From a virus (lineage: Duplodnaviria > Caudoviricetes), in the IMG/VR virus record IMGVR_UViG_3300017721_000911, positions 1-50,433 of that record: a DNA stretch of 50,433 nucleotides; one strand, given 5' to 3'. Positions within the stretch are counted from its first letter, which is position 1. Every line of letters begins with the position of its first letter. A model generated the notes under the pieces. That model was not told the DNA's origin and searched no databases. It was given only the letters and a program-made list of their open reading frames with translations. Positions 1 to 50,433 of the stretch are shown here, piece by piece. The position numbers and the translations under genes were made by a program.

Positions 1-202
1 CCTGAAGACAACAATCACGACCTAAGACATTATTCGCACACGAACAAAAAGTTCCGTCTTGTGCCCCACCTGTTGTACAACAGGCTCCAAGTGCATCTGG
101 AATGTAAGGTGGTTCGTTGACATTAAAGGCAACGGTTTGGTCTACTCTTAAAAGTTGTCCTCTTGAAAGTGCTGAAACAGCCTTGCGAATCTTTTGTCTC
201 AT
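1..202 (-). CDS. Cys-rich hypothetical protein, runs off the window edge (not in ORF track)
   Basis: ATG at 202 overlaps the upstream TAA (TAATG). Open to base 1: MRQKIRKAVSALSRGQLLRVDQTVAFNVNEPPYIPDALGACCTTGGAQDGTFCSCANNVLGRDCCLQ. Confidence 0.7.
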   Translation of the reverse strand, partial: MRQKIRKAVSALSRGQLLRVDQTVAFNVNEPPYIPDALGACCTTGGAQDGTFCSCANNVLGRDCCLQ

Positions 203-912
203 TATGAAGCCTGATAGGTAAATGTTGCAAATTCTCTTGTCGCGTTGAATGGATCAAGAAGTGCAGAGAATCGAAGACGATCAATATCGTCCAATTCAAT
301 AAACACTTCCTCGCCGGGAAGCAACAAGTAAGCATTTGCGGTCGCACCACCAGATGAGTAATCACTATTTGATACTGCAATGATTGCACCACTTAGTGTC
401 AGACCAGCAAAGTTTTTGATTTTGATTCCAGTTGCACAAGAGAAACCGGGAAGTTGAACAACAGGAGGAGTATCGGTTCCAAGAAACCGTGAACCCATCG
501 TCAAGGAGGATGGCAGAACGACATCAGAGATGATTACTGATGATCCACTAATGTCCAGAGTCGTACCGTCCACATTTTGAACACCAAATGTCAATCCAGT
601 CGTGAATCCATCGATGGTAACTCTGAATTGATCTCCTGTGATCGTACCCGTAAATCCAAAGGTTCCTGTGACCAAGATAGGACCACCCTCAGTGTTTCCG
701 GCAACGGGAAGAGTCTGGAAGGTGTTATTGATTCCTTGAATATTTACAGGAAGCGGGTTTTGGTTTGAAACTTGTGAAAAAGAGTTTTCATCACCAAAGT
801 CAAGTTTTACAATTTGGTAATGTGAGTCTTTTGCGGACACATAATCGGTCGCTACGCTTGCTCCGGAAAGACCGGGATTTAATCGAACATTGTCTTGCTG
901 AAACTGTGACAT
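202..912 (-). CDS. hypothetical protein, probably a virion structural protein
   Basis: 236-aa Gly/Thr-rich ORF with late-promoter-like ATACATA upstream on the minus strand. Confidence 0.65.
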   Translation of the reverse strand: MSQFQQDNVRLNPGLSGASVATDYVSAKDSHYQIVKLDFGDENSFSQVSNQNPLPVNIQGINNTFQTLPVAGNTEGGPILVTGTFGFTGTITGDQFRVTIDGFTTGLTFGVQNVDGTTLDISGSSVIISDVVLPSSLTMGSRFLGTDTPPVVQLPGFSCATGIKIKNFAGLTLSGAIIAVSNSDYSSGGATANAYLLLPGEEVFIELDDIDRLRFSALLDPFNATREFATFTYQAS

Positions 913-928
913 AGGTGTATACTCCGTA

Positions 929-943
929 CTACATAATATGTAT
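929..943. promoter_or_regulatory. overlapping divergent late-promoter-like boxes
   Basis: CTACATA (+, 929-935) and ATACATA (-, 943-937) form the palindrome TACATA-A-TATGTA between divergent genes. Confidence 0.6.
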
Positions 944-954
944 GCGAGGTGAAT

Positions 955-1182
955 ATGTTTGAAGATTTAGAAAAGACTTTCTCTCGAAAAGTTGAAGAAA
1001 TGGTTCTAAAAAATGGTGATGGATATATGGATACAATTAATCTACTTTGTGAAGAAATGGTCATTGAACCAGAACTCGCTGCAAAATATCTATCAAAGCC
1101 AATTATTGAAAAAATTCGTGTGGAAGCCGAAAACATAAATTTACTCCCACGCGGTCCAAAATTATTTTCAGATGGGTCTTGA
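955..1182 (+). CDS. gp33: late transcription coactivator gp33
   Basis: Small acidic protein with F.R.VE..V....YMD.I..LCEE..IEPE..AK.LS.PI.EKI..EAE..NLL pattern, adjacent to gp32. ATG at 955 follows GAGGT; GTG at 949 is an alternative start. Confidence 0.85.
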   Translation: MFEDLEKTFSRKVEEMVLKNGDGYMDTINLLCEEMVIEPELAAKYLSKPIIEKIRVEAENINLLPRGPKLFSDGS

Positions 1183-1259: not shown

Positions 1260-2165
1260 ATGTCATTTGAAGAACTTAAACGTCGAAGTCAAAATAAAGA
1301 TGCCCTCATTGAGAAACTCACCTCAATGGATGATGGGGATAAGAAGAAGTCATATAAGGATGATCGTTTCTGGCGACCAACTGTAGATGACGCAGGAACC
1401 GCAAGTGCGGTAATTCGTTTCCTTCCAGAAGCACAAGGAGATGAAGATTCGTGGGTTTTGTATTACAATCACGCATTCCAAGGTCCGGGTGGCTGGTTCA
1501 TTGAAAACTCTCGCACCACTTTTGGTGAGAAAGATCCGGTTTCGGAAATGAACAGTAAACTTTGGAACAGTGGTTTGCAATCCAACAAGGATCTTGTTTC
1601 TCAGAAGTATAAGAGAAAGAAGAACTTTGTATCAAACATCCTTGTCATTAATGATTCAGGTAATCCCGAAAACAACGGTAAGGTTTTCCTTTATCGTTAC
1701 GGGGTTAAGATTCATCAAAAGATTATGGATGCAATGAAGCCAGAGTTTGCGGATGAAGAACCTATCATCCCATTCGATTTCTGGCAAGGTGCAAACTTCC
1801 GATTGCGTCAACGCAAGGTCGCTGGTTATCCCAACTACGACAAGTCGGAGTTTGATTCGCCTTCCGCTCTTCTTGATGGAGATGAAGAGAAGTTGAAGGC
1901 AATCTGGGAGCAAGAGTATGCTCTCAGTGAGTTTGTCGATCCGACAAACTACAAATCTTATGATGAGTTGAAGACTCGTCTTGAGAGCGTCCTTGGCGGC
2001 TCGCAGCCGACTACGACAGCAGAAACAGTTGCTGTCAATGATGCACCAGTTATCCAAACTGAGGATAAGATTTCTGGTGGTGGTCAGGGGGACCGTGAGG
2101 AAGTCCAGCCTGATTCGGAAGAGTCTGCATTGGACTACTTCCAACGGCTCGCAGCCGAGGACTGA
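1260..2165 (+). CDS. gp32: single-stranded DNA-binding protein gp32
   Basis: DDRFW, AVIRFLP, HAFQGPGGWFIENS.TT, PFDFWQGANF, NYDKSEF motifs and acidic C-terminal tail; AGGAG RBS. Confidence 0.97.
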   Translation: MSFEELKRRSQNKDALIEKLTSMDDGDKKKSYKDDRFWRPTVDDAGTASAVIRFLPEAQGDEDSWVLYYNHAFQGPGGWFIENSRTTFGEKDPVSEMNSKLWNSGLQSNKDLVSQKYKRKKNFVSNILVINDSGNPENNGKVFLYRYGVKIHQKIMDAMKPEFADEEPIIPFDFWQGANFRLRQRKVAGYPNYDKSEFDSPSALLDGDEEKLKAIWEQEYALSEFVDPTNYKSYDELKTRLESVLGGSQPTTTAETVAVNDAPVIQTEDKISGGGQGDREEVQPDSEESALDYFQRLAAED

Positions 2166-2191
2166 TTCCATTTGACAGAGATGGAATCCCT

Positions 2192-2222
2192 AAGACCCCT
2201 GCTTCGGCGGGGGTCTTTTTTT
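2192..2222 (+). terminator. rho-independent terminator after gp32
   Basis: AAGACCCCTGC-TTCG-GCGGGGGTCTT followed by a T run; C(UUCG)G tetraloop; lies between convergent genes. Confidence 0.9.
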
Positions 2223-3846
2223 ATCTACCACCAAAAGCAATTCCTTGCATAGCATATGCTGCCGCTTCCATATCTGCCGACACAGGACTTGGTGAAGACT
2301 CAAGGGCAAAGTTATTGCTAACGGGCGTTGTGCTATTTTGAACAATTACTGTTGATGCTCCAGAACCAGACTCACGTTCTGCTCTTAATCTTGCATCAAA
2401 GACTCTTTCTCTCGCCTCCATCTTTCTTTCCATTTCTGATGTGATGTCACGACGAATATTTTCAATTCTTCCCTGTGTTTCTGCTGTCCTATCAAGAATT
2501 TGATTTTCAAGATTAGTACTTAAATTCCGGGACGCTGATGCCCCCGACCGAAGAGTTTCTGCACCACCAATTTCTACTCCAAAGAAACCAAGTCTGCTAT
2601 TAATATCCTCAATAATACCTGCAACACCATCCATTAATGTTGCTGCGACATTGTTTACCATAATTTTAACACGGTCAACTAAGTTTGAGAATGCTGTAGG
2701 TATCGTATCCGTAAAGAAAAATGATGCCTCTGCAACTCCTAATTTTATGAAGCCCGGAAGCGTTACAGAAAAGAAGTCTGGTAATGTTTTAACAAAGAAA
2801 TTTTTGACTTTGGAAAATACGTCCGGCAGTGTAATTGTAAAGAACTCAAATACTTTTGTAAAGAATCCCGACAACCCATCAATCACCTTATCAAAGAAAC
2901 CCATTACTCCTTCTTCAGACAGCAATCCAAATGATAGACCCTCCAACACGCTGGCAAAGGCTTGTCTGATGCCTTTCAAAAATCCACCATCTTCTGCGGT
3001 GAATCCTTTGATAAATCCTGTAATAGCGTCGAAAGCGATGAGTAGTTGTCCGAGGATAGGAACAAATTTGAAAACCCTTCCCACGACTCGTTTGAATCTA
3101 CCAAAGAATTCACCAACTCTTGTGAACAATTGGCTCACACCTGCAAGCGAACCACCCTCTGCGAACAGTTTTCCGATTCTTCCTGCTGGTCCAAATGCCC
3201 CTTTAATCTTGGTAAAGAAGTTTGAGATCCTTGAAAAAATATTCTTATCACCCGAACCAAAAAATCTTGTATTGAGTCTTTTAAAAAATTCTGTGATTTG
3301 CACACGAAGTGAAATGAGCCGGACTCTAATTGAGTCGCCGCTCCTGCCGAAAGAAATATTTCCGATTGCTTTGAACAGACTAATCAATGGGTTTTTGACA
3401 CCTTTGACAAAAGCCCCACGAATAATGCTACTGTCTTTGATTGCTTTTGCCGCTCCAAGTTGCCGACCAGCACCGAGGGCGACGGCTCCACCTGCTGCTA
3501 ACGCACCTTTACCCGGAATTGTGAATCCGTCTTCAGTGAGCGGTCTGGTATTTTTTGCGATTTCGGAAAGTGCTTGGAGTTGCTTTCCGAAAATACCAGC
3601 AAGTTTTTGTGCCAAGAGGGTAGCCAAAAAGTTTGCATTATTTTTTTCTTGTCGAGCGTTCTCCTCTCGCTCCTCTTTTGATGGACCAGACAACGTTTTA
3701 GACACGATTACATCAACATTACTTTTAATGTCTGAGATATCTTTTTCGAGTTTATCTTCACCTTCGTTACCCTGTGACAAAGCAGAGATGATATCTCTGA
3801 TTTCATCTCGTTCCGATTTTGGGTCTAGTCCTTCAAATTCAGCCAT
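2221..3846 (-). CDS. probable tape measure / baseplate hub protein (gp29-like)
   Basis: 541 aa, helical, with amphipathic Phe-rich repeats and hydrophobic segments; directly downstream of gp26/gp51; AGGAG RBS. Confidence 0.65.
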   Translation of the reverse strand: MAEFEGLDPKSERDEIRDIISALSQGNEGEDKLEKDISDIKSNVDVIVSKTLSGPSKEEREENARQEKNNANFLATLLAQKLAGIFGKQLQALSEIAKNTRPLTEDGFTIPGKGALAAGGAVALGAGRQLGAAKAIKDSSIIRGAFVKGVKNPLISLFKAIGNISFGRSGDSIRVRLISLRVQITEFFKRLNTRFFGSGDKNIFSRISNFFTKIKGAFGPAGRIGKLFAEGGSLAGVSQLFTRVGEFFGRFKRVVGRVFKFVPILGQLLIAFDAITGFIKGFTAEDGGFLKGIRQAFASVLEGLSFGLLSEEGVMGFFDKVIDGLSGFFTKVFEFFTITLPDVFSKVKNFFVKTLPDFFSVTLPGFIKLGVAEASFFFTDTIPTAFSNLVDRVKIMVNNVAATLMDGVAGIIEDINSRLGFFGVEIGGAETLRSGASASRNLSTNLENQILDRTAETQGRIENIRRDITSEMERKMEARERVFDARLRAERESGSGASTVIVQNSTTPVSNNFALESSPSPVSADMEAAAYAMQGIAFGGR

Positions 3847-4030
3847 TTTTTGCTCCTAGCCTTTCATATTCCTTTCTTTCACTCTCAATATCTTGAATAT
3901 AGAGATTGATGTAAATAATTCTTTCCCACGGCATCATATTGCTAATTGTTTCAAGACTCATATGTGCCTTGATCATCAGGTGAAAATTCATTTGTAGATG
4001 GGACGCAATTGAGTCGTGACCCATCATCAA
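3839..4030 (-). CDS. gp51: baseplate hub assembly chaperone gp51, possibly the C-terminal part of a gp26-gp51 frameshift product
   Basis: NF.LM...H.SL..I.NMMPWER.IY motif. Confidence 0.85.
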   Translation of the reverse strand: MMMGHDSIASHLQMNFHLMIKAHMSLETISNMMPWERIIYINLYIQDIESERKEYERLGAKNG

Positions 4031-4054
4031 GTAAAAAAATTCTGCAAGCCCTCC
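3997..4054 (-). promoter_or_regulatory. candidate -1 programmed ribosomal frameshift cassette
   Basis: GGAGG (4054-4050), 10 nt, T_TTT_TTT (4039-4033), 7 nt, then hairpin GATGGG..ACG/CGT-CCCATC (4025-3997). Confidence 0.6.
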
Positions 4055-4719
4055 ACTTCAATATCAAGTTCCTCTCCACAGTGCTTACACTCACATTTTT
4101 GTTTGATAACACATCTTGGGAACTCTTCCACCTTTTCAACAATCTTCTGAATCTGTTTAAGACTCAATGATTCAATAAAATCACTTCGTTCTTTCTTTGT
4201 AAAGTCTTTGAAATGATAAACATTTTGATCGTTAAATACCGTCTTGATAACGTTCTCGGACAATTCCAAGACATCAGTTTCTTCACCACTGTATTTTTCA
4301 ATTGAACGAGAGTTCAATGGTTGGACTTCAACGCCAACATTTTCTTGCAGCATCACAACGACATCTTCTGGGTACTCTTTGTTCAGAGATAGATTCTCGA
4401 TGCTCACCTCCAGTGGAAATGACTTATTACATTTATCGCAGGTGTAGTTGATGTCGATGCTTTCACCCACGGATCTTGATCTCATATGAATAAACAAATG
4501 TTCAAGATCAAAATATGATAATTCTTCGACTTTAGTTTCGTCTTCAATGCAAGACTGTACAACAGTTTCAATACAACGAATGATGTCTTTTGATGAATCA
4601 CTTTCTTTCATCATCAGCATCACCTTTTCTTCTTTTACAAGAAATGGTCGAAACTTCACCATTTCCCCACTAGGGATTTTAGTTTCATATTTTGGTGTCA
4701 CAATAATTGGAATGCTCAT
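4027..4719 (-). CDS. gp26: baseplate hub assembly protein gp26
   Basis: P.Y...IPSG..VKFRPFLVKEEK, R.RSVGE, two CxxC pairs, C-terminal EGLQNFF. Confidence 0.92.
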   Translation of the reverse strand: MSIPIIVTPKYETKIPSGEMVKFRPFLVKEEKVMLMMKESDSSKDIIRCIETVVQSCIEDETKVEELSYFDLEHLFIHMRSRSVGESIDINYTCDKCNKSFPLEVSIENLSLNKEYPEDVVVMLQENVGVEVQPLNSRSIEKYSGEETDVLELSENVIKTVFNDQNVYHFKDFTKKERSDFIESLSLKQIQKIVEKVEEFPRCVIKQKCECKHCGEELDIEVEGLQNFFT

Positions 4720-4732
4720 AATAATCCTTTCA

Positions 4733-5302
4733 TTATCTTAAGAAAAATTCTTTAAAGGAGAACGTCACGGGTAACTGGATAAGTGATGTGTTTTCTGATT
4801 CAAAGTTAAAAGAACCAACAGACTTTGGGAAAATTTCACGAATAAAAAACGAGTTTTGACCCTCAACCTCACCCTTATCATTTAAAATATCAAGATACGC
4901 ATCACAAACATAATCTGTCCTGTAGGTGTACAATCCAGTTCTTGTGGGGTAAATACCATTTAACCAGTTTGTCATTGTTTTACGAAGTAATGACTCTCTA
5001 TCTAAAAGTAAATTAACTGTGAGATCCCCCTCATAGTTCATCTGATATGGATGTTCGTAGTCAACACCACTAACCTTTATAGCGTTCGTAGCGACCGTCT
5101 GAGAGGGTGTATTGATTGATTGGATGCGGTTGTCGAATTCCTCAACAAAGTCCCTCACGCTCCATCCAGCGGCGGAACAGGCGGCTTGTAGGTTTGCCGG
5201 AATGTTGACAAATTCAAAACGATAACGATCAGACCTTTGGGTTCCAAACCGCCCCATCGATCCAATAAATCTATTAATACTAATTGGTCCTAAATCTGCC
5301 AT
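4733..5302 (-). CDS. tail tube-like protein (gp54/gp19-like tube initiator)
   Basis: Tube-fold features (PY...Y..LTV.., IFPKSVG, QLPVTFSF); located between gp2 and gp26. Confidence 0.7.
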   Translation of the reverse strand: MADLGPISINRFIGSMGRFGTQRSDRYRFEFVNIPANLQAACSAAGWSVRDFVEEFDNRIQSINTPSQTVATNAIKVSGVDYEHPYQMNYEGDLTVNLLLDRESLLRKTMTNWLNGIYPTRTGLYTYRTDYVCDAYLDILNDKGEVEGQNSFFIREIFPKSVGSFNFESENTSLIQLPVTFSFKEFFLR

Positions 5303-5901
5303 TATGTTCTCTCAGATGTATCTAGGATATTTTTTAGAATATCTTCGTATGATTTTCTATATGCAGTCGAAGCAGAGGTTTTTCTCCAAGCACGCTCAAG
5401 TATTTTTGAAGTTGGTCCGAGAAAGAAGTCCTCCCAAATATTTGGGTGTAATTGTAAAGATACTGCACCCATTCTTGGAATGATATATTTTCTAACACAA
5501 CTTTTGGCAACCGCCGACAAATATGTTTCATTAAGCATTCCCTCATATGAGAAATTAATCTGTGTTTTGTTACCAGATTCGTTCCCAAGAGATTTTGATG
5601 TAAGCACTTTTGTGAGGAAAAATTTTCTAAATTTTCTTGGTAAATGAAAAAGATTCATACCAGTGAGGTAATCACGTTTCACATCAATCACCAGAACTCC
5701 GGGGAACAAGTGGTAGTATGGAATTGTGTCAATTGTTTTGGGAACTGGATACGAAAAAAATTGAACGCTGCCAGCAAGTTGATCACCCTTTTTAAGAGCA
5801 GGTGGAGATTCAATACTAATATTATCAATTGAGTATCGACTACCTGATTGTGATAGTAGTTTTTTAATCTTTCCGGATGTGCGAACATACTCACTTGCCA
5901 T
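5302..5901 (-). CDS. gp2: DNA end protector protein gp2-like
   Basis: FF.Y..PKT...IPYY..FP, GMNL.HLP...R and C.RKY motifs; follows gp4. Confidence 0.75.
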   Translation of the reverse strand: MASEYVRTSGKIKKLLSQSGSRYSIDNISIESPPALKKGDQLAGSVQFFSYPVPKTIDTIPYYHLFPGVLVIDVKRDYLTGMNLFHLPRKFRKFFLTKVLTSKSLGNESGNKTQINFSYEGMLNETYLSAVAKSCVRKYIIPRMGAVSLQLHPNIWEDFFLGPTSKILERAWRKTSASTAYRKSYEDILKNILDTSERT

Positions 5902-6328
5902 AGATTTCTTTCTCTGTCAAAATCTTAAACTTCCAACCTTTTTTGTGACAGACGTTTTCTGCTGCTTCCCACTTTGCTTGATTTACCAAATAAGTATTTG
6001 CCTCATTCAGAAACCTTTTGGTTATTCTTTTTGGTTTCTTTGGACTCTGGGTATACTTGGCTGGTTTAACCTCAAGCATCTGTGTCTCAATCTCACCCGT
6101 TTTGTTCTTAACTTCAATTATAAAATCAGGAAAATATTTGTGTCGTTTTTTATCGACTGGTGAAAGGTATGGGATAGCCATCTCTTCGGATGCCCAACGA
6201 ATCACATTTGGATTCTCATCAAAGATTCTCATACATTTACGCTCCCATAGGGATCTGTAAACAATTTTTGTTGGATCACCAAGATATTTTGAAGGATTCT
6301 TTGGTTGATACTTTCCACGGTACGCCAT
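5891..6328 (-). CDS. gp4: head completion nuclease gp4
   Basis: MAY.GKY.PKNP.KY.GDPT.I.YRSLWER, WASEE, Y.PDF, EVKP, N.AKW.AA motifs. Confidence 0.96.
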   Translation of the reverse strand: MAYRGKYQPKNPSKYLGDPTKIVYRSLWERKCMRIFDENPNVIRWASEEMAIPYLSPVDKKRHKYFPDFIIEVKNKTGEIETQMLEVKPAKYTQSPKKPKRITKRFLNEANTYLVNQAKWEAAENVCHKKGWKFKILTEKEIYGK

Positions 6329-6343
6329 ACATAGAATATGTAG
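6327..6343. promoter_or_regulatory. overlapping divergent late-promoter-like boxes
   Basis: ATACATA (+, 6327-6333) and CTACATA (-, 6343-6337); palindrome TACATA-GAA-TATGTA between gp4 and gp48. Confidence 0.6.
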
Positions 6344-6351
6344 GAGGCACT

Positions 6352-7665
6352 ATGGCAGTTGACGAATCAGGAATGCAACCGCAATCCACACAACCCGATA
6401 CCACAAATAGAACAGCACTTGATGATTTGGTTGATGCAGGATCATCTTTTCTTGTAGACAACAGTTTAAAGGATTTGGCTGATGTATTTGATGACGTTGG
6501 TATTGGACAAAATGAATACTTTAGCAGTCGATCAAAGGGTCGATCTGCAAGTCTTTACCAATACGAAAGCGATCTCGTTTATCCTCTTGATCTGACAGAA
6601 GAAAGTGAAACAAATCGACAATCTTCCTACATTCGCTTTCAGGTTTTCAAGCGAAAAAGTCAACGTGCCAAGGTCGGTATTGATACGAGTGGGGATGGTC
6701 CGTTTTTCACTGCTGGCTTGGTTGACAGGCAGGGAAATATTGAAGAAGGGATTGAATTAAGCACCGACACGTTCAGTAGCCTTGAAAACTTCACTGATTC
6801 TTTTGTTTCTCAAGATGAAAAGTCATCGTACACGGCATATGGCAAATATGGTGATTTAATTGGAAATCGTGGGATTGCCTTTGATCCTTTGAAGGGTGAG
6901 TTGTCACGGACAAATCGGTTTGGCAATAAAACCTCAGTCGGTCCATCTGCCAATCGTGAAATTGTAAACAAAGTGGCATCAGACATTCGGTTGTCCAAGG
7001 CTACTGAAAAACTTGAAGAACAAATTTTAATGTATATCCCATCAGGTTTGAACTTCTCTGATAAAGTGGATTACGAAGAGGGATCTGCTGGAGTCTTCAA
7101 TGCGATCAACGAAGCCGTTTCTGGTAACATCGGTGCGGGTATTGATAAACTTAAATTACTTGGTGTAGAAAAACTGTCACAGAAAGCAGCAAAAAATATT
7201 CCAACAGGTGGTGAAAATGATCTGTCTAACTTTTTCCGAGCAAGGCTTGGCTTTGCAGAAAACCCAAAGAACGAATCGTTGTTCAGAGGTGTCGGAAGAA
7301 AGACATTTTCACTTGAGTTTAAGTTCGCTCCAAGAAATCAACGCGAGTCAATTATGATGTTAAACATCATTGAGGCTTTTCGTTTTCATATGCTTCCCGA
7401 ACTCTCCATCTCATCCACGATGTTGCTCGCACCACACGAATTTGATGTGAGTTTTTTCTATCGTGATTTGCCTTCTGGTGAGTTTGTAGAAAATGTTAAT
7501 CTTCCTAAGATTGGTCGTGCATTCTTGACCGACTTATCAGTAAACTACGCACCGAGTGAACGGTCTACCTTTTTCCGAGATGGTGTACCAACTGAGGTGA
7601 CACTCAATCTCACTATGAGTCAGGCTGTTCTTCTCAATCGTCAACTTATTTTGGCAGGATTCTAA
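6352..7665 (+). CDS. gp48: baseplate tail tube cap gp48
   Basis: LVYPLD, NP..E.LF.GV..R.FS.EFKFAPRN..E, F..G.P.EV.L.L motifs. Start moved to ATG 6352 after AGGAGG, because the track start at 6190 overlaps gp4. Confidence 0.88.
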   Translation: MAVDESGMQPQSTQPDTTNRTALDDLVDAGSSFLVDNSLKDLADVFDDVGIGQNEYFSSRSKGRSASLYQYESDLVYPLDLTEESETNRQSSYIRFQVFKRKSQRAKVGIDTSGDGPFFTAGLVDRQGNIEEGIELSTDTFSSLENFTDSFVSQDEKSSYTAYGKYGDLIGNRGIAFDPLKGELSRTNRFGNKTSVGPSANREIVNKVASDIRLSKATEKLEEQILMYIPSGLNFSDKVDYEEGSAGVFNAINEAVSGNIGAGIDKLKLLGVEKLSQKAAKNIPTGGENDLSNFFRARLGFAENPKNESLFRGVGRKTFSLEFKFAPRNQRESIMMLNIIEAFRFHMLPELSISSTMLLAPHEFDVSFFYRDLPSGEFVENVNLPKIGRAFLTDLSVNYAPSERSTFFRDGVPTEVTLNLTMSQAVLLNRQLILAGF

Positions 7666-9859: not shown

Positions 9860-9860
9860 T

Positions 9861-10748: not shown

Positions 10749-10749
10749 T

Positions 10750-11016
10750 ATGGGATTACCAGCAGCAAAAATTGGTGACAAGGCAGGTGGCGTTATACTC
10801 AATAGTCGTGCCAATGCTGTCAACATAAATGGACTTCCGCCAGCAACGCTTGGATCGTCTGTCTCTCCACACGGAGACTCACCACACTCATCTGCAAGAA
10901 TTACTACTGGGAGTTCGAGTGTTTACAGTGGGGGGATTCCTCTTTCAAGACTAACTGACTCTGCCACTTGCTCCCATTCAATTACGACTGGTTCGGGAGA
11001 TGTGAATATCGGATGA
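10750..11016 (+). CDS. PAAR-repeat spike tip protein (gp5.4-like)
   Basis: PAAK.GD, V.ING.P.A, GS.SV...G.P..R..D...C.H....GS.DV. Confidence 0.9.
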   Translation: MGLPAAKIGDKAGGVILNSRANAVNINGLPPATLGSSVSPHGDSPHSSARITTGSSSVYSGGIPLSRLTDSATCSHSITTGSGDVNIG

Positions 11017-11597: not shown

Positions 11598-11605
11598 GTT
11601 AAAAT

Positions 11606-37257: not shown

Positions 37258-37266
37258 GGATGAATT

Positions 37267-40932: not shown

Positions 40933-40951
40933 AAAAGACAAGGAGAATCTA

Positions 40952-41971: not shown

Positions 41972-41989
41972 CAAGAAGGAGATTCCATA

Positions 41990-43456: not shown

Positions 43457-43480
43457 TTCTAAGTAAAAAATTAAATACGC

Positions 43481-43515
43481 AAGATAGGGGAGTCGAAAGG
43501 CTCCCTTATCTTTTT
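43481..43515 (+). terminator. rho-independent terminator after gp23
   Basis: AAGATAGGGGAGTC-GAAA-GGCTCCCTTATCTT followed by TTT. Confidence 0.9.
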
Positions 43516-43519
43516 ACAC

Positions 43520-43526
43520 CTAAATA
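43520..43526 (+). promoter_or_regulatory. late promoter for gp3
   Basis: CTAAATA immediately after the terminator and 5 nt before the ATG. Confidence 0.7.
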
Positions 43527-43531
43527 ATCAT

Positions 43532-44119
43532 ATGGGTATTAACACCGTAGATTCAGATTCAATTTTTAATAGCAATAATCAGTTGCCATCTATCACTGCT
43601 GGGTTTGCTGGTGCTTCTCTCGAAACAGCCGAGGATAAGCAACCATCAAATGTAAATTATCTGTACCAAACTCTGTTTAAATTTGAAATCTTTCGTTTAC
43701 CAAAAATGGAATATTTCATTCAAAGAGTCAATCTTCCCGGTTTCGGAGCAGATGCTAATCTTGAGCAGCCCACACGATTCGTTGCGGCAAAGCATCCAAA
43801 CACAAAAGTTAATTATGAAAATCTAACGATGACCTTTTTGGTCAATGAAGATATGTCAAACTGGCGTGAGATTTACGAGTGGATGAGAACAATTTACTTA
43901 ACAAAAGATAGTAAGAATTTTGAAAGTAAAATCTCTACACACTTCACCGATGGTTCTCTTCATATTCTAAACAGTGCAATGAATCCAAAACTACAAGTTC
44001 GTTTCCGGAACCTTCTGCCTGTTAGTCTTTCTGGTTTTGAATTTGATTCGTCGGTGACTGACATTGCTCCATTTACTGCGAATATCACCTTTGCCTACGA
44101 TTATTACGAATTCGTCTGA
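43532..44119 (+). CDS. gp3: tail tube terminator gp3
   Basis: N.L....F.F.I..LP..EYF.Q.VNLPG, FLV.EDM.NW.EI..W, P.SLSG..F; follows gp23. Confidence 0.9.
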   Translation: MGINTVDSDSIFNSNNQLPSITAGFAGASLETAEDKQPSNVNYLYQTLFKFEIFRLPKMEYFIQRVNLPGFGADANLEQPTRFVAAKHPNTKVNYENLTMTFLVNEDMSNWREIYEWMRTIYLTKDSKNFESKISTHFTDGSLHILNSAMNPKLQVRFRNLLPVSLSGFEFDSSVTDIAPFTANITFAYDYYEFV

Positions 44120-44190: not shown

Positions 44191-44625
44191 ATGGAACTTA
44201 ATGAACTTAGAGTATTAGTAGAGCAAGATGCCCAGATTGATGATACCCAACTCGATACGGAATCCTTGAGACTTCCTGCTCTTCACAACAAATATCTCAA
44301 CTTTTACCACGATGCCAAACTCAGATATGAGAAAGCGTCAAATGAATACAATCGTCTGTATCGGCTCAAGTGGGAATACTATACAGGAAAAATGGATCAG
44401 GAAACCCTTGACAAAAAAGGATGGGAACCTTTTCAACACAATATTCTCAAGCAAGATATTCCTATCTTTATGAACAGTGACGAAGACCTGTGCAAAAGAA
44501 AAGAAGTTATTACATATGTGAAATCTATTGTAGAGTATCTTGAAGATGTTGTGAAAGAAATCACATTCCGACACACCAAGATCAAAAATGCAATTGAATG
44601 GAGAAGATTCTTGTCCGGAGCATAA
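44191..44625 (+). CDS. uvsY: recombination mediator UvsY
   Basis: D..ID...L..ESL..P.LH.KY, KWEYY.GK, IKNAIEW.RF..G. Confidence 0.95.
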   Translation: MELNELRVLVEQDAQIDDTQLDTESLRLPALHNKYLNFYHDAKLRYEKASNEYNRLYRLKWEYYTGKMDQETLDKKGWEPFQHNILKQDIPIFMNSDEDLCKRKEVITYVKSIVEYLEDVVKEITFRHTKIKNAIEWRRFLSGA

Positions 44626-44628
44626 ATA
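44622..44628 (+). promoter_or_regulatory. late promoter for uvsW
   Basis: ATAAATA 6 nt before the ATG at 44635. Confidence 0.65.
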
Positions 44629-44634
44629 TAATGT

Positions 44635-46158
44635 ATGCCCGATTACACGATTGAGGACATTGATTCTTCAAATATCAAAGTCCGCTGTGAAAGACATCTT
44701 GCCAAGGAACTCTCTGACTTCTTTACCTTTAAAGTACCCGGAAGAGAGTTTATGCCCGCGTATCGTGCAAAGAGGTGGGACGGGCAGATCAAACTCTACA
44801 ATCTGTATTCACAACGCATCTACGCAGGACTTGAAGCATACATTCTCAAGTTTTGTCAGGATCGAAAGTATACGATTGAATTACCAAAAAGAAGTTCTCC
44901 CCCGACATTCTCAGAAGCCCACCTAGAATCGCTTCTAAGCAGTTTGAATATTTCTATCGGTGGGAAGTCGATTGATCCCCACAAGCACCAGAAAGAAGCC
45001 ATCCTACACGGTATGAATACAAACCGTTGTTTGTTGTTATCACCAACAGGATCAGGCAAGTCTTTGATCATCTATACGCTTCTGAGACACTATTTGAATC
45101 TGATTCCAAAGGAACAGAAAGTTTTAATTATTGTTCCAACTATTGGACTTGTTTCTCAAATGTTCTCTGACATCTGTGACTATGCAGGCAAAGATACAAG
45201 GTGGAATCCAAGAGAACAGACACACAATGTGTATGCCGGTAAAGAAAAGAACACAAAGAAACGAGTGGTCATCTCAACTTGGCAGTCATTACACAAACTA
45301 CCACCAGAATACTTTCAGCAGTTCGGTGCAGTCTTTGGCGACGAAGCACACTTGTTCAAGTCAAAGTCGCTGAGTTCAATTATGACCAAACTTACTCGTT
45401 GTCCGTATCGTATCGCAACGACAGGAACACTCGACGGAATGCTCACTCACAAGTTAGTGATTGAAGGATTGTTTGGTCCGGCGAAGAAGATTATTACAAC
45501 GAAGAAGTTGATGGAAAAGAAGTTGCTTACCAACTTGACTATTGACTGCTTGCTGCTAAAATATTCTGGTAGCGATAGACAACGGATCAGAAGAACACCA
45601 TATCAAGATGAGATAGAATGGCTCATCACTGACGAAAGACGAAACAAGTTTATATGTGATTTAGCCCTGAAAACAAAAGGCAATACACTCATACTGTTTC
45701 AGTTTGTGGAGAAACACGGAAAGGTTCTAAACAAAATGCTAAAAGATTGTGGAAAACCTGTGTTCTATATTCACGGCGGAACCGACGTTGAGCAGCGTGA
45801 AGAAGCCCGTAAAGTTGCAGAAACAATCGACAACGGAATCATCCTTGCATCCTATGGAACATTTTCGACCGGCGTGAACATCAAACGCCTAAATAATATT
45901 GTGTTCTCATCACCGTCAAAGAGTCGGGTCAGGGTGCTACAGAGTATTGGAAGACAACTTAGAAAGTCTATTCACAAAAGCACCGCACGACTCTACGACA
46001 TCTGTGATGACTTGTCGTGGAAAAAGTATCAGAATCACACTCTTCGTCATTTTATAGAACGTAAAAAAATATACGACGCTGAGAAGTTTGACTACTCAGT
46101 GATTACGATACCACTACAGGGAGAACGGAATGAGCAAAACCCCCTTCAAGATTCTTAA
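44635..46158 (+). CDS. uvsW: SF2 DNA helicase UvsW
   Basis: WDG.I.L, SPTGSGKS, DEAH, TGT, ASYGTFSTG.NI, QSIGR.LR. Confidence 0.97.
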   Translation: MPDYTIEDIDSSNIKVRCERHLAKELSDFFTFKVPGREFMPAYRAKRWDGQIKLYNLYSQRIYAGLEAYILKFCQDRKYTIELPKRSSPPTFSEAHLESLLSSLNISIGGKSIDPHKHQKEAILHGMNTNRCLLLSPTGSGKSLIIYTLLRHYLNLIPKEQKVLIIVPTIGLVSQMFSDICDYAGKDTRWNPREQTHNVYAGKEKNTKKRVVISTWQSLHKLPPEYFQQFGAVFGDEAHLFKSKSLSSIMTKLTRCPYRIATTGTLDGMLTHKLVIEGLFGPAKKIITTKKLMEKKLLTNLTIDCLLLKYSGSDRQRIRRTPYQDEIEWLITDERRNKFICDLALKTKGNTLILFQFVEKHGKVLNKMLKDCGKPVFYIHGGTDVEQREEARKVAETIDNGIILASYGTFSTGVNIKRLNNIVFSSPSKSRVRVLQSIGRQLRKSIHKSTARLYDICDDLSWKKYQNHTLRHFIERKKIYDAEKFDYSVITIPLQGERNEQNPLQDS

Positions 46159-46753
46159 ATTGAGAAGCGGCGATGATATCGTTGCACATTTAATTAAAAA
46201 TACAAAAGACTTTATTCGGCTTGAGCGTCCGATGCTCCTCAAAGTGATGCACTATGTTGACAACCACAGCGGAAACAAAAGAGAAACGATCGTTTTGGTA
46301 GACTGGTTGAAGGCAACCACATCCAATCACATTGACATACCGAGAGATCATATTCTTGGAATCTTTGATTGTGACCCAGACATTCTCCAAGCCTACGAAT
46401 TTCAAAAGAAACTTGATGATAACCCCCAACTAGGATATAAAATGGACGACCCACGACAAATGAAACTTCCGTTCGGCAAAAGACCTATAACTCCTCCTCC
46501 GAACATTGACAATATCTTGAAGATCGTTGCAGCAAAGATTGACGATATGAAAAGCAAGATTGATAAAGAGATGGATGATCAGGACATCGAAGAAGCATTA
46601 GAGGCGATGGGTATGGACCCAGAATCAATTAAAGAAATTATCGATGATGAAGATATCGATGTTGATATTGAGATGATCGATAATAAAAAACGAAAAGATT
46701 ATGGAGAATCTTTTATGGATTGGTCGCCAAAATTAGATGATTACTTGACATAA
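46130..46753 (+). CDS. conserved hypothetical protein between uvsW and gp55, with an acidic tail
   Basis: ILKL.SG.DI.A N-terminus typical of the small gene at this position in T4-like phages. Confidence 0.65.
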   Translation: MSKTPFKILKLRSGDDIVAHLIKNTKDFIRLERPMLLKVMHYVDNHSGNKRETIVLVDWLKATTSNHIDIPRDHILGIFDCDPDILQAYEFQKKLDDNPQLGYKMDDPRQMKLPFGKRPITPPPNIDNILKIVAAKIDDMKSKIDKEMDDQDIEEALEAMGMDPESIKEIIDDEDIDVDIEMIDNKKRKDYGESFMDWSPKLDDYLT

Positions 46754-46772
46754 GAATAAAAAGGTGTAAAAT
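46745..46772 (+). promoter_or_regulatory. sigma70-type promoter for gp55
   Basis: TTGACA (46745-46750), 16-nt spacer, TAAAAT (46767-46772). Confidence 0.65.
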
Positions 46773-46778
46773 TTTATT

Positions 46779-47315
46779 ATGGCGAAAAACAGCGATCACT
46801 ACATTGACAATAAATTATTCTACTCAGAAATGATTAAGTGGAAAGATGAGGTTAAGAGTGCGGAAGAGACTGATGACCCCAAACCACCAGTGACCGAATA
46901 TATCGGTCAATGCTTTCTTTTGATTGCAGAACGTTTGTCCACTCGCCCAAACTTTGTAAATTATCCGTTCCGAGAAGAAATGGTTGGAGATGCGATTGAG
47001 AACTGTCTGATGTATGCGGGCAACTTTGATCCAGATAAATCCAAGAACCCATTTGCATATTTCACCCAGATAACGTATTATGCCTTTCTCAGAAGAATTC
47101 AACGCGAGAAAAAACAAGATCATATCAAATATAAACTAATGGAAGCAGCAGACGCAAAGGGTGAACTGGCTGCGATTCTTGATCCAGATGGAGCAAAAAA
47201 GAATCCATACGCCGCTCACCTTAGACTGACTGATAATGACATCGTAAATATGGAACCGAAGAAGAAGCGAAAGAAAAGAGCCAAAGGTTCCACAGGTGAC
47301 GGAGAGTTATTTTGA
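46779..47315 (+). CDS. gp55: late sigma factor gp55
   Basis: HY.DN, YIG.C...IA..LS..PNF.NY..REEM..D.IENC, NFDP.KS.NPFAYFTQI...AFLRRI..EKKQ. Confidence 0.97.
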   Translation: MAKNSDHYIDNKLFYSEMIKWKDEVKSAEETDDPKPPVTEYIGQCFLLIAERLSTRPNFVNYPFREEMVGDAIENCLMYAGNFDPDKSKNPFAYFTQITYYAFLRRIQREKKQDHIKYKLMEAADAKGELAAILDPDGAKKNPYAAHLRLTDNDIVNMEPKKKRKKRAKGSTGDGELF

Positions 47316-48370
47316 AGATTGCAATTATCACCGACACGCACTTTGGTGCAAAAGGTGATTCCCAGATTTTCTTAGAACACACACTCAAGTTTTTTGAGGA
47401 TGTGTTTTTTCCTACGCTCAAAGAGCAGGGAATCACAAACGTTTTACACTTGGGTGATTTGATGGATCGTCGGAAGTATGTGAACTTTCACACGCTTCAT
47501 CAAATGCGGACTCGGTTTATGGATCGCCTGCTTGCTGAAAAAGTCAACGTTCACTGTATCGTCGGCAACCACGACACCTACTTTAAAAACACAAACGAGG
47601 TAAACTCTCCCAAAGAGTTGTTCGGTGATAAGTATCCAAACTTTCATATCTACACTGATCCTGTAATCTTAGGTCTGGGTGATAAAAACTTTGCAATGGT
47701 TCCGTGGATCAACAAAGAAAATCAAGATGATATTTTAGAGTGGATTCATAATGTAGACGCTCCGATTCTTTGTGGTCACTTTGAACTTGACGGTTATCAG
47801 GTGATGAGAAACGTGAAGCACAGCGGTGGTCAAGATCCTAAATTCTGTGATCGCTTTGATAAAGTCTGGTCTGGACACTTTCACCAGAAGCACGAAGAAA
47901 ACAATGTATGTTACTTTGGCACTGCCTATCAGATGACCTTTTCCGATCTCTTTGAGAAAAAAGGTTTTCACATTTATGATACAGACACCGATGAGATTGA
48001 GTTTGTAGAAAATCCTCATCGTATTTTCTTTGCGATTCCGTATCGTGACAATATTGACATTGACGCAATTGACTACAAGCAATATAAAAAGTCATACGTT
48101 AAAGTCTTTGTCCACGAAAAGAAAGACCCTGCAAAGTTTGATCGGATGCTTGAGAGGATCTACGACCAAGCACCAGAGAGCGTGACGTTTCTTGAAAACG
48201 AAGCCAGCGATCCCGTTGATGATGCAACCATCGACGAAGAGGCTTTGTCCACTGATACCTTGACACTTATCAATCAGCACGTTGATGAGGCATTTAGAGA
48301 TGACCCCGATGAATGCAAGCGATTGAAAGAAGTGTTCAAGGATTTGTTCCTTGAAAGTTTTGATTTATGA
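47312..48370 (+). CDS. gp47: recombination nuclease gp47 (Mre11/SbcD-like)
   Basis: DTHFG, HLGD..DRRK, GNHD, GHFE, SGHFH; TTG start overlapping the gp55 stop, after GGAG. Confidence 0.96.
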   Translation: MKIAIITDTHFGAKGDSQIFLEHTLKFFEDVFFPTLKEQGITNVLHLGDLMDRRKYVNFHTLHQMRTRFMDRLLAEKVNVHCIVGNHDTYFKNTNEVNSPKELFGDKYPNFHIYTDPVILGLGDKNFAMVPWINKENQDDILEWIHNVDAPILCGHFELDGYQVMRNVKHSGGQDPKFCDRFDKVWSGHFHQKHEENNVCYFGTAYQMTFSDLFEKKGFHIYDTDTDEIEFVENPHRIFFAIPYRDNIDIDAIDYKQYKKSYVKVFVHEKKDPAKFDRMLERIYDQAPESVTFLENEASDPVDDATIDEEALSTDTLTLINQHVDEAFRDDPDECKRLKEVFKDLFLESFDL

Positions 48371-50085
48371 TTGAATTCAAAAAGATTAGATGTAAAAATT
48401 TTGGCTCCTTCGGCAATCACTTCACTGAGATTGATCTGAATCGTCACCGCACCACACTGGTGAGTGGACTTAACGGACACGGCAAGTCTTTTGCCCTGCT
48501 GGACTCCATCACGTTTGCATTGTTTGGCAAGCCGTTTCGTAAGATCAACATTCCACAACTGGTGAACTCGGTCAATGAAAAGGACTGTGTGGTTGAGGTT
48601 GAATTTAACATCGGCGAGGACGAGTATATGATTCACCGTGGACTCAAGCCGAAGAAGTTTGAGGTTCACAAGAACGGCGAGTTGCTGGATGTCATCGCAC
48701 GATCAAAAGATTATCAAAAGATGCTGGAGGATCAGGTTCTCAAAATGAACTACAAGTCTTTCACGCAGGTGGTAATTCTGGGTGCGTCGGCATTTGTTCC
48801 GTTTATGCAACTATCAGCCGCAGATCGTCGGACGGTGATTGAGGATATTCTTGATATTCAAGTGTTCTCAAATATGAACTCTGTGTTGAGAGACAAGACC
48901 TCGGCTACCAAAACAGAAATCAATGAAATCACAAGACAACTTTCTATTAACAAAGAACGTGGAACTGGTCTGGTAAATCTGGTCAAGTCTCTGGAGAAGA
49001 AGAGCGACGAACAACTCGTGACGCTCAACGAGGAACTCCGTGTCGCAAATCAAACCAGAGGCTCCGCAGAAAACGTGATCACGACGTTAGATGAAAAAAT
49101 TTCAGGACTTCTTTTAAAAATCTCCGATGAGAAGACTGTAGATCAGCGTATTCAAAAGTATTCACAAGCAAGAATGCGTATGAATCGTGAGATTAAAGAA
49201 AATAAAAAGAATAGTAAATTCTACACGGATCACAAAAACTGCCCCACCTGCCATCAAGAAATCACAGAAGAAAGTCGAGCGGAAGCCACGACCAAGGCGG
49301 TCAACACGATTGACACCCTGAACGCTGCGTTGGCTGAACTGGAGGATATGGAGCAGAAGCAGATTGAGCGAAGTAATGAAATCTCAGATGTTCAAAAACA
49401 AATTGAAGATTTAAAATCTGACAGAATCGCTCACATTACTACAGAAAGAAACGCCCGGACTGCCATCAAGTCAATTGAAGATAAAAAAGAAAAACTACAA
49501 GAATCCGAAGAAGATGATATCCAAGATGTCAGATCAAAACTTGAAAGAGTGATGGAGGATCGTGAAAAGTTGATCAAAAGAAAAGAAGAACTTTTGGTCA
49601 AGCAAAACACATTCACACACGCAGGACATATGCTCAAGGACTCTGGCATCAAAGCCAAGGTCATTCGCTACTACCTTCCGATTATCAATGCACTGGTAAA
49701 CAAGCATCTCAAAGAGATGGACTTCTACGTTTCGTTTGATCTGGATGAAAACTTCAACGAAACAATCAAGAGTCGGCATCGTGATAACTTCTCGTATATG
49801 TCGTTCTCTGAGGGTGAGAAGATGCGTATTGACCTTGCGATTCTTCTGGCTTGGCGTGAGGTATCCAGACTCAAGAACTCTGCAAATACAAACCTGCTGA
49901 TTCTTGACGAGGTATTTGACGCATCGCTGGATACTATCGGTTCTGATGACTTCTTGAAACTTTTGGATAAACTCTCAACACAAAGCCATATTTTTGTGAT
50001 CTCACATAAGGCAGACCAACTCGTAGACAAATTCCAGAATCAAGTATCATTCCAGAAGCAAGGTAACTTCTCTCGACTTGTGTAA
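48367..50085 (+). CDS. gp46: recombination ATPase gp46 (Rad50/SbcC-like)
   Basis: Walker A G.NGHGKS, CPTC zinc hook, FSEGE signature, LILDEVFD, ISH. Confidence 0.97.
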   Translation: MIEFKKIRCKNFGSFGNHFTEIDLNRHRTTLVSGLNGHGKSFALLDSITFALFGKPFRKINIPQLVNSVNEKDCVVEVEFNIGEDEYMIHRGLKPKKFEVHKNGELLDVIARSKDYQKMLEDQVLKMNYKSFTQVVILGASAFVPFMQLSAADRRTVIEDILDIQVFSNMNSVLRDKTSATKTEINEITRQLSINKERGTGLVNLVKSLEKKSDEQLVTLNEELRVANQTRGSAENVITTLDEKISGLLLKISDEKTVDQRIQKYSQARMRMNREIKENKKNSKFYTDHKNCPTCHQEITEESRAEATTKAVNTIDTLNAALAELEDMEQKQIERSNEISDVQKQIEDLKSDRIAHITTERNARTAIKSIEDKKEKLQESEEDDIQDVRSKLERVMEDREKLIKRKEELLVKQNTFTHAGHMLKDSGIKAKVIRYYLPIINALVNKHLKEMDFYVSFDLDENFNETIKSRHRDNFSYMSFSEGEKMRIDLAILLAWREVSRLKNSANTNLLILDEVFDASLDTIGSDDFLKLLDKLSTQSHIFVISHKADQLVDKFQNQVSFQKQGNFSRLV

Positions 50086-50086
50086 C

Positions 50087-50093
50087 CTACATA
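50087..50093 (+). promoter_or_regulatory. late-promoter-like box for the nuclease gene
   Basis: CTACATA 5 nt before the ATG at 50099. Confidence 0.55.
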
Positions 50094-50098
50094 AGTGA

Positions 50099-50433
50099 AT
50101 GAAACCACCAAGCAGAAAATCGTGCTATAATTTTAGAGTTACCGAGATTGTAAAAGTCGTTGATGGGGACACCATTGATGTAATTATTGATCTTGGGTTT
50201 GATCTTTACAAAAAAGAACGTGTTCGTGTCGCTGGCGTGGATACACCCGAAAAGAGAACACGCGATCTTGAAGAAAAAAAACTGGGTATTGATGCCACCA
50301 ATTGGATGAAAGATCAATTAGAATCAGCCATTCAGGGTGAGGATGATCTCGTAATCCGAACAGAAATTGATGGTGGTTTTGGTAAGTATGGTCGGCTTCT
50401 TGGTTGGCTATACATCGGTGAAGAAACAGAATC
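50099..50433 (+). CDS. staphylococcal nuclease (SNase/thermonuclease)-family protein, 3' truncated (not in ORF track)
   Basis: Manual translation MKPPSRKSCYNFRVTEIVKVVDGDTIDVIIDLGFDLYKKERVRVAGVDTPEKRTRD...GKYGRLLG contains the DGDT, R..G.DTPE and KYGR.L motifs. Confidence 0.9.
   Translation, partial: MKPPSRKSCYNFRVTEIVKVVDGDTIDVIIDLGFDLYKKERVRVAGVDTPEKRTRDLEEKKLGIDATNWMKDQLESAIQGEDDLVIRTEIDGGFGKYGRLLGWLYIGEETE

What the first reader, a model, noticed from the sequence alone, without database searches (positions are those of the whole stretch)
1..50433. Apparent window-wide avoidance of AGCT, CATG, GGCC and CCWGG through synonymous codon choice
Seen by eye, not counted. Each Pro-Gly pair I checked uses CCC/CCG-GG despite the AT-rich genome (e.g. 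near 1485, 10430, 39836, 42152). His before a G-starting codon is CAC. Lys/Glu-Ala use AAG-GCT, AAA-GCA or GAA-GCA/GCC. The Gly-Ala-rich collagen runs lack GGA-GCT, Gly-Pro is GGT/GGA-CC, and the Met-rich gene at 39413-40279 has no C-ATG. I found no instance of these four motifs, while GATC, CCGG, GTAC, TCGA, ACGT and GCGC occur. Base composition alone would predict tens to over a hundred of each. Inference: long-term selection by host restriction systems (AluI-, NlaIII-, HaeIII- and EcoRII-like specificities) or by methyl-directed defence. This fingerprints the host methylome and suggests the phage DNA lacks blanket base modification.
Basis: partly seen in the sequence, partly recalled or inferred. 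Interest (0 to 1): 0.7.

Follow-up and report, generated by a model that had tools for sequence, protein, structure and literature searches.

The report
Marine phage erased restriction-enzyme words
This uncultured marine T4-like virus has no copy of AGCT, CATG, GGCC or CCWGG in 50 kb, and even lacks the Trp-Pro pair that would spell GGCC, most likely because restriction enzymes cut those words; a sister lineage that lacks CTAG carries its own predicted CTAG-cutting enzyme, so some of the erasure may be self-imposed rather than a fingerprint of the host.

Summary
Observation confirmed. AGCT, CATG, GGCC and CCWGG each occur 0 times; codon-preserving shuffles give 122, 55, 51 and 49. The purge is wider than reported: GCGC is nearly gone (4), some 20 longer restriction-type words are absent, and Trp-Pro, which forces GGCC, is missing. 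The window is about a quarter of an uncultured marine T4-like myovirus. Its clade shares the AGCT/GGCC/CCWGG core; lineages add one word each (CATG here; CTAG, TTAA, TCGA, GATC, GTAC elsewhere). A CTAG-free clade member encodes a solitary MjaI-family restriction nuclease. So does cyanophage S-SM2 (0 CTAG in 191 kb, no methylase found), while three phages with that nuclease plus a methylase keep CTAG. No nuclease for this window's words was found, but much of the genome is unseen. Best reading: selection against Type II-type cutters, with an old core imposed from outside and CATG likely self-imposed. 'Host methylome fingerprint' is therefore unsafe. The host is unresolved (PVC hint). Site avoidance is known, and this scan reported solitary-nuclease/purged-site pairs before on other DNA.

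The parts
1..50433 (.). Whole fragment: zero AGCT, CATG, GGCC, CCWGG. Also zero TTCGAA, GGYRCC, AGATCT, GRCGYC, GWGCWC, GGTCTC/GAGACC, CTGCAG, ACCGGT, RGCGCY, GRGCYC, ATGCAT, GGTACC, GGTNACC, RGGWCCY, GACNNNGTC, TACGTA, ACTAGT, GTCGAC, CTCGAG; 38 of 64 six-base palindromes absent
1260..29908 (.). T4-like gp32, then tail, baseplate and fibre genes (both strands); collagen-repeat fibre at 25895-29908
   Evidence: PHROGs and Pfam
30000..44119 (+). T4-like neck, terminase, sheath, tube, portal (37267-38778), protease, scaffold and major capsid gp23 (41990-43456)
   Evidence: gp23 at most about 55% identical to cultured phages
44191..50433 (+). UvsY, UvsW, late sigma gp55, gp47, gp46 and a cut SNase-like gene; no methyltransferase or restriction nuclease found in the window
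36700..37257 (+). Tail-tube gene with Phe-Pro where three outgroup records have Trp-Pro (TGG-CCN would spell GGCC)
7665..8561 (+). gp53-like wedge gene with Phe-Pro where three outgroup records have Trp-Pro
39413..40279 (+). Met- and Gly-Pro-rich gene of no known family between portal and protease; no C before any ATG, all Pro-Gly as CCC-GG
29991..42807 (.). The four surviving GCGC sites (29991, 30055, 36433, 42804), all followed by A (three GCGCAC, one GCGCAG)

Best explanation
The fragment has lost every AGCT, CATG, GGCC and CCWGG, most likely through selection against Type II-type restriction nucleases that would cut these words in unprotected phage DNA, in two layers: an old clade-wide core likely imposed from outside (hosts or co-infecting phages) and a newer CATG purge likely imposed by a methylase-free nuclease of the phage's own that is predicted to lie in the unseen part of its genome. 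Shown: the zeros, their clade-wide spread, the lineage-by-lineage extra words, the loss of Trp-Pro, and a solitary MjaI-family gene in a CTAG-free clade member. Inferred: that the words are cut, which enzyme cuts each, that such a phage nuclease destroys host or rival-phage DNA, and that a CATG nuclease exists in this lineage.
For: Zeros against codon shuffles. The missing set has the shape of Type II sites, with no bipartite asymmetric or strand-biased depletion beyond chance; Rusinov 2018 found elimination almost only for Type II sites, 7.1% against under 0.5%. The clade has 33 portal rows at SH-aLRT 100, and CATG loss is confined to a 5-row subclade at 99. Of 108 redundant clade loci, 106 lack AGCT, 108 CCWGG, 100 GGCC and 17 CATG. 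CATG stays at zero in relatives 75-90% identical to the window. Trp-Pro is 0 against 7.7, 7.1 and 9.1 expected in three GGCC-free sets, while Phe-Pro and Tyr-Pro are normal; S-SM2 has 19 of 24 and G180 23 of 23. G172 has CTAG 0 of 30 and RE_MjaI at E 3e-46 just upstream of gp43, with conserved acidic and Lys positions. S-SM2 has the homolog (54%), CTAG 0 of 299 and no methylase found. S-CAM3, S-H9-2 and S-RIM32 have it beside a methylase and keep CTAG at 14/78, 9/61 and 5/42 in the stretches read. G172 holds a second solitary nuclease-like gene.
Against: No nuclease for CATG, AGCT, GGCC or CCWGG was found in any clade record, including six CATG-free replication-region loci; the PvuII-family search was empty in 70 records, with a silent control. 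No lineage-specific nuclease was seen in the TTAA-free or TCGA-free loci either. G008, 93% complete and free of AGCT, ACGT and CCGG, showed none among the ORFs scanned. The self-imposed link rests on one word (CTAG) in two independent lineages, and L430 has the gene with 2 CTAG of 12 expected. CTAG is low even where the methylase is present. G172 is a 17% fragment, so a distant methylase is not excluded. No activity was tested.
Confidence: 0.5

Rival explanations
1. All missing words, CATG included, were selected by host restriction-modification systems; the lineage-specific words mark shifts between host strains.
For: This is the established cause of site loss in virulent phages (Rusinov 2018). 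More than 20 specificities are too many for one phage to carry. Relatives carry anti-restriction-type genes: SAM lyase and Mom-like in G008, Mom-like in the TTAA-free lineage. No own nuclease was found for the four words.
Against: It does not explain why CTAG is zero exactly where a methylase-free MjaI-family gene sits. Hiraoka 2022 reports that marine myovirus methyl motifs (RGCY, CCWGG, GGWCC) were rarely shared with the prokaryotic genomes recovered (passages). A Synechococcus phage (S-SM2) lacks many of the same six-base words.
Confidence: 0.3
2. The core too is imposed by phage-borne nucleases, the phage's own ancestors' and those of co-infecting T4-like phages, so that purging and methylating are two answers to phage-versus-phage restriction.
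For: Other marine myoviruses methylate the very words purged here (RGCY covers AGCT and GGCC; CCWGG) and carry 2.2 methylases per genome (Hiraoka 2022). Relatives with a conserved methylase-like gene beside gp46 mostly keep GGCC and CCWGG at 0.2-0.8 of expectation, and this clade lacks that gene there. Unrelated marine T4-likes purge other words (P-HM2: CCGG, GCGC; S-CAM3: CCGG).
Against: Only one nuclease family (plus one candidate) was found in all records scanned. Solitary nucleases are rare in virulent phages, 7 in 520 (Oliveira 2014). The methylase correlation has exceptions (G198, L166, L168, L201, L217) and few independent clades. Host enzymes would give the same methylate-or-purge pattern.
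Confidence: 0.12
3. The words are avoided because a previous host methylates them and a methyl-directed (Type IIM/IV) enzyme in the next host cuts the methylated form.
For: AGCT, CCWGG and GGCC are known methylation targets in aquatic microbes (passages).
Against: GATC, the commonest methylated motif in the marine survey, is neutral here. Rusinov found only slight depletion for Type IV sites. The long and split palindromes fit ordinary Type II sites.
Confidence: 0.05
4. Mutation bias, codon usage or an assembly artefact.
For: Palindromes are mildly low in many phages.
Against: The codon shuffle keeps usage and never fell below 35. Neighbouring words are enriched, not only deamination products. 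The pattern recurs in over 100 loci, and other runs confirm the letters.
Confidence: 0.02

Closest known systems
Restriction-site avoidance in virulent dsDNA phages (Rusinov et al. 2018, PMC6286503; parts 2-3 of 5 read)
   Same: Complete elimination of Type II-type sites; none of Type I or III kind; consistent with unmodified cytosine.
   Different: Three 4-mers, one 5-mer and 21 six-base palindromes with at least 5 expected are at zero in 50 kb, against 11 in HTVC008M and 4 in P-HM2. The purge is layered by lineage, reaches protein sequence (Trp-Pro), and one layer in the clade tracks a phage-borne nuclease; the parts read treat only host enzymes.
MjaI-family restriction endonucleases (Pfam PF09568, PADLOC PDLC03519) in cyanophages S-SM2, S-CAM3, S-RIM32, S-H9-2
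   Same: Clade member G172 carries a 174-aa homolog, 44-55% identical to these.
   Different: It is not in the window. In G172 and S-SM2 it has no adjacent methylase and CTAG is zero. CTAG as the MjaI site is recalled; the paper checked did not name MjaI.
Methylated marine myoviruses (Hiraoka et al. 2022, PMC8919816; passages read)
   Same: Same words: RGCY (AGCT, GGCC) and CCWGG.
   Different: Those viruses keep and methylate the words; this clade deletes them, and no methylase was found in its fragments.
Kyanoviridae-like T4 phages (P-HM2, HTVC008M, S-SKS1, Melnitz)
   Same: Gene order and core genes; partial or single-word purges of their own.
   Different: gp23 is only 52-55% identical; the host is probably not a cyanobacterium or SAR11 (PVC-like accessory genes in relatives).

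Membership tests
Restriction-site avoidance (Type II) | Observed far below expected under a codon- and composition-preserving null | tested here: met
Restriction-site avoidance (Type II) | Missing words are palindromic or two-strand sites of Type II form, not bipartite or strand-biased | tested here: met
   enzyme names for the words are recalled, not looked up in REBASE
Restriction-site avoidance (Type II) | Host encodes R-M systems with these specificities | tested here: inconclusive
   Host unknown; EcoRII-C and RE_HaeIII found in 0 of 54 PVC candidates, but the controls were silent
Restriction-site avoidance (Type II) | Adding a site lowers plating on the host | not testable with these tools
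   no cultured phage or host
Solitary phage nuclease with purged site | Nuclease gene without a cognate methylase in a genome lacking its site: clade member G172 (CTAG) and S-SM2 | tested here: met
   G172 is only a 17% fragment
Solitary phage nuclease with purged site | The same for this window's lineage (CATG) or the core words | tested here: inconclusive
   none found; the early region was not recovered, and Pfam and PADLOC both missed the second G172 nuclease candidate
Solitary phage nuclease with purged site | Site retained when the methylase is present | tested here: met
   3 of 3 phages keep CTAG, though at 0.12-0.18 of expectation
Solitary phage nuclease with purged site | Enzyme is expressed and cuts the word | not testable with these tools
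   needs biochemistry
T4-like myovirus | gp13-gp23, gp17-20, gp32, gp46/47, gp55, UvsW/Y in T4-like order | tested here: met

The most novel reading that the evidence does not exclude
The short words missing from this clade are the footprint of phage-borne, methylase-free restriction nucleases. Marine T4-like phages cut host and rival-phage DNA and tell self from non-self by deleting the target from their own genome, so each lineage's missing word (CATG, CTAG, TTAA, TCGA, GATC, GTAC) names an enzyme it carries, and the shared core records an old phage-versus-phage arms race strong enough to ban a dipeptide.
Probability: 0.2. Interest if true: 0.8.

Novelty: new variant of a known kind. Interest (0 to 1): 0.5.

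Why it matters
Missing words in phage genomes are read as a record of host defences and proposed for host prediction. If some are self-imposed, that reading needs a check for phage nucleases first. The clade offers a clean natural experiment: one shared background, six different added words. Each word predicts the specificity of an enzyme to look for, in the phage or in its host. The Trp-Pro ban shows that DNA-level defence can constrain virion protein sequence.

Tried and rejected
Host by mis-binned contigs in GTDB genomes: 13 hits, scattered over phyla and distant; not used. A dockerin-protease gene of G008 as a Planctomycetota marker: 0 of 151 genomes, and G008 lies outside the clade. A 64-aa protein that I recalled as planctomycete-like: virus-only in the Atlas, homologs unnamed; rejected. 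Matching host word profiles: 40 stretches of up to 20 kb from PVC genomes show no AGCT purge, which is uninformative because hosts methylate. Genome-wide 4-mer counts in hosts could not be had from the pattern search. PvuII-family, EcoRII-C and HaeIII-family searches were empty with silent controls. A gene shared by AGCT-free records and missing in AGCT-keeping G180 and S-SM2: no nuclease-like candidate stood out. The last viral scan returned only its own record. HincII-like gene L421:1918-2388: GTYRAC is present in G172 (25), so not HincII specificity; no cultured homolog; the profile search for it never finished. No solved structure matched the MjaI alignment. Small-share sequencing runs were not used for habitat. 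Paper searches (listings) showed no paper on solitary phage nucleases paired with purged sites; the library lacks most subscription papers, and no supplements were read.
Full report
1. The observation. AGCT, CATG, GGCC and CCWGG occur 0 times in 50,433 bases (40% G+C); maximal-order Markov expectations are 99, 139, 57 and 50. Shuffling synonymous codons within 41 genes 100 times gave means of 122, 55, 51 and 49 and minima of 98, 43, 35 and 38. All codon-pair claims hold: 46 of 46 Pro-Gly use CCC/CCG, 27 of 27 His before G are CAC, 0 of 256 internal ATG follow C, 35 of 35 Gly-Pro use GGA/GGT. Two corrections: GCGC is itself nearly purged (4 sites), and GTAC, ACGT and TCGA are partly depleted; only GATC and CCGG are neutral. 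Contigs from four other marine runs cover 30.5-50.4 kb, those of one run mostly without a difference, so this is no assembly artefact.

2. The purge is wider. Also at zero, with shuffle means: GGYRCC 25, TTCGAA 24, AGATCT 19, GRCGYC 17, GWGCWC 16, GGTCTC on both strands 15, CTGCAG 14, ACCGGT 13, RGCGCY 11, GRGCYC 11, ATGCAT, GGTACC, GGTNACC and RGGWCCY 9 each, GACNNNGTC 8, GTCGAC 7. Of 64 six-base palindromes 38 are absent: 8 of 8 all-G/C, 20 of 24 with four G/C, 9 of 24 with two, 1 of 8 all-A/T. GAATTC, GGATCC, GATATC, TGATCA and TTTAAA remain. A scan of 3+3 gapped words found five at zero with at least 6 expected, four of them palindromic, and no strand-biased 5- or 6-mer. This is the form of Type II sites; the enzyme names that match them (AluI, NlaIII, HaeIII, EcoRII and others) are recalled, not looked up. 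Length-matched controls: 21 six-base palindromes with at least 5 expected are at zero here, 11 in HTVC008M, 4 in P-HM2, 9 in 40 kb of S-CAM3; those phages have purges of their own (CGCG; CCGG and GCGC; CCGG). The window is at the high end of a common habit.

3. What the DNA is. A T4-like myovirus fragment from gp32 through tail, head and gp46, about 27% complete, with gp23 at most 55% identical to cultured cyanophages and pelagiphages. Runs that hold it are marine metagenomes. No methylase or restriction nuclease was found in it.

4. Relatives show layers. Seven scans gathered 108 redundant loci above marker-identity cut-offs. Of these 108 lack CCWGG, 106 lack AGCT, 100 lack GGCC and 17 lack CATG; the two with AGCT entered by ribonucleotide reductase alone and may be other phages. 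Sixteen records totalling 561 kb hold 0 AGCT, 0 CCWGG and 13 GGCC, 12 of them in one record. In a portal tree of 110 rows the clade has 33 rows (SH-aLRT 100) and CATG loss is confined to 5 rows around the window (99); other branches lose GATC, TCGA, GTAC or CTAG, and another lineage TTAA. CATG is 0 in 164 kb of redundant DNA from 14 loci, some only 75-81% identical to the window; L162 has one CATG; replication-region loci are tied to the window by the shared signature, not by overlap. AGCT loss extends to many more distant T4-likes, but G180 and S-SM2 keep AGCT while lacking a core of six-base palindromes.

5. The purge reaches protein. Trp-Pro (TGG-CCN) cannot avoid GGCC. It is 0 against 7.7, 7.1 and 9.1 expected in three GGCC-free sets (which share homologous genes), while Phe-Pro and Tyr-Pro are normal; S-SM2 has 19 of 24 and G180 23 of 23, G006 11 of 18 and G007 9 of 16. 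At two orthologous places (tail tube, gp53) three outgroup records each have Trp-Pro and the window Phe-Pro. At CATG sites of sister lineages with unchanged amino acids the window uses other synonymous words (28 of 28 against G001), whereas GATC is kept at 37 of 63.

6. Who cuts? Clade member G172 has CTAG 0 of 30 and a 174-aa RE_MjaI gene (E 3e-46) directly upstream of the DNA polymerase, with no methylase in its 32 kb. That MjaI recognises CTAG is recalled. Homologs occur in cyanophages. S-SM2 has the gene alone, CTAG 0 of 299 in 190,789 bp as its only 4-base palindrome at zero, and no methylase by two family searches and six protein queries. S-CAM3, S-H9-2 and S-RIM32 have it next to a methylase and keep CTAG at 14/78, 9/61 and 5/42 in the 18-40 kb read. 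Two short loci have 0 of 13 and 2 of 12. Among 66 records the family rang in just 4; CTAG-free G003 is a structural fragment that does not overlap G172. A second G172 gene after the polymerase looks like a restriction nuclease (HincII at E 0.2; Atlas features near ThaI and NspV families at 0.90-0.94) but was missed by Pfam and PADLOC, which shows the limits of my negative scans. Against the self-imposed reading: no nuclease for CATG, AGCT, GGCC or CCWGG turned up in Pfam or PADLOC scans of selected unknown ORFs, in the CATG-, TTAA- and TCGA-free replication loci read by eye, or in a PvuII-family search of 70 records (control silent). The region rich in small early genes, where S-SM2 keeps its copy, was not recovered for this clade. 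I reached the MjaI link; the scan's notes, read, report it and similar pairs for CATG, TTAA and AGCT on other genomes. They are unchecked AI notes, and one of them found a case where the nuclease did not explain the purge.

7. Host and modification. A CATG-free relative (L584) carries a TonB gene and a 541-aa secreted-protein gene. The TonB matches 22 of 251 Planctomycetota and 32 of 201 Verrucomicrobiota genomes at E up to 1e-20 (counted; best 47-49% identity) and 0 of 151 Pseudomonadota and 0 of 121 Bacteroidota. The 541-aa protein is 53-58% identical in five Planctomycetota and 35-53% in five Verrucomicrobiota chosen for their TonB match. This is a hint at a PVC host, not an assignment; other phyla were not sampled. 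Heavy purging argues against blanket cytosine modification (Rusinov 2018). Clade members carry glycosyltransferase clusters, a weak DUF1599 match below cut-off and, in some lineages, a Mom-family gene, so partial modification stays open.

8. Mechanism. Shown: word loss far beyond chance, inherited across a clade, added to by lineage, enforced at codon and amino-acid level. Established: Type II restriction selects for such loss. Inferred: the many-word core comes from outside enzymes, and single added words can come from a nuclease the phage carries without a methylase, which would cut host or rival DNA and leave its own genome intact. For CTAG this has comparative support; for CATG it is analogy. 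I put 0.5 on this two-layer reading, 0.3 on host enzymes alone, 0.12 on phage enzymes throughout, 0.05 on methyl-directed defence.

9. Literature seen. Rusinov 2018 (PMC6286503): parts 2-3 of 5. Oliveira 2014 (PMC4176335): passages and the section on solitary genes, which counts 7 solitary nucleases in 520 virulent phages. Hiraoka 2019 and 2022 (PMC6329791, PMC8919816), Seong 2022 (PMC9516812), the S-H9-2 paper (PMC10194205) and PMC10609329: passages only. Search listings 13, 51, 74, 81, 124 and 130 showed no paper pairing a solitary phage nuclease with a purged site; the library is partial and no supplements were read.

10. Verdict. The feature is real and strong. It is a variant of known restriction-site avoidance, notable for its layering, its reach into protein sequence and the sign that part of it is self-imposed. 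The window alone does not identify the enzymes or the host. Interest 0.5.

Noticed in passing
window 29991, 30055, 36433, 42804 and 15 clade records: GCGC survives almost only before A: 97 of 99 clade sites; GCGCAC is at 0.69 of expectation while VGCGCB is 3 of about 470. Unexplained; may mean an overlapping modification shields those sites.
   Followed up: partly
L421:1918-2388 (-), G172: Second solitary restriction-nuclease-like gene, downstream of the DNA polymerase; HincII/ThaI/NspV-like; site unknown (TTCGAA, AACGTT, TCATGA are low in G172).
   Followed up: partly
L254:14461-16056 and homologs beside gp46: A 530-650 aa protein with a partial N4/N6 methylase domain is conserved in many relatives and absent at that place in this clade; carriers mostly keep GGCC and CCWGG. 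Possible methylate-or-purge pair; exceptions exist.
   Followed up: partly
L453:7045-7971, L573, L574; L248:10121-11044; L563:13117-14031: Mom-family gene after UvsX in the TTAA-free lineage and in G008 and G198; G008 also has SAM lyase, SAM decarboxylase, cohesin and dockerin genes and a tmRNA.
   Followed up: no
L584:12124-16085; L579:6718-8664: Host-like cluster after ribonucleotide reductase: porin-like gene, weak phosphate-transporter match, 541-aa secreted protein and TonB, with PVC-like homologs.
   Followed up: partly
G010, G186, G200; G198, G216: Other word sets in relatives: near-complete RGCY loss (AGCT, GGCC, AGCC); or AGCT and AGCC/GGCT lost with GGCC kept. G002 lacks GACNGC.
   Followed up: no
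G004, G005, G166-G173, between regA and gp43: Highly variable clusters of glycosyltransferase and sugar-nucleotide genes next to collagen-repeat genes; virion glycosylation is a likely role.
   Followed up: no
window 39413-40279 and 38778-39416: Two genes of no known family between portal and prohead protease; the second has Pro/Gly/Met-rich repeats.
   Followed up: no
window CAGNNNNNCTG: Split palindrome at zero with about 10 expected; I recall no enzyme for it.
   Followed up: no
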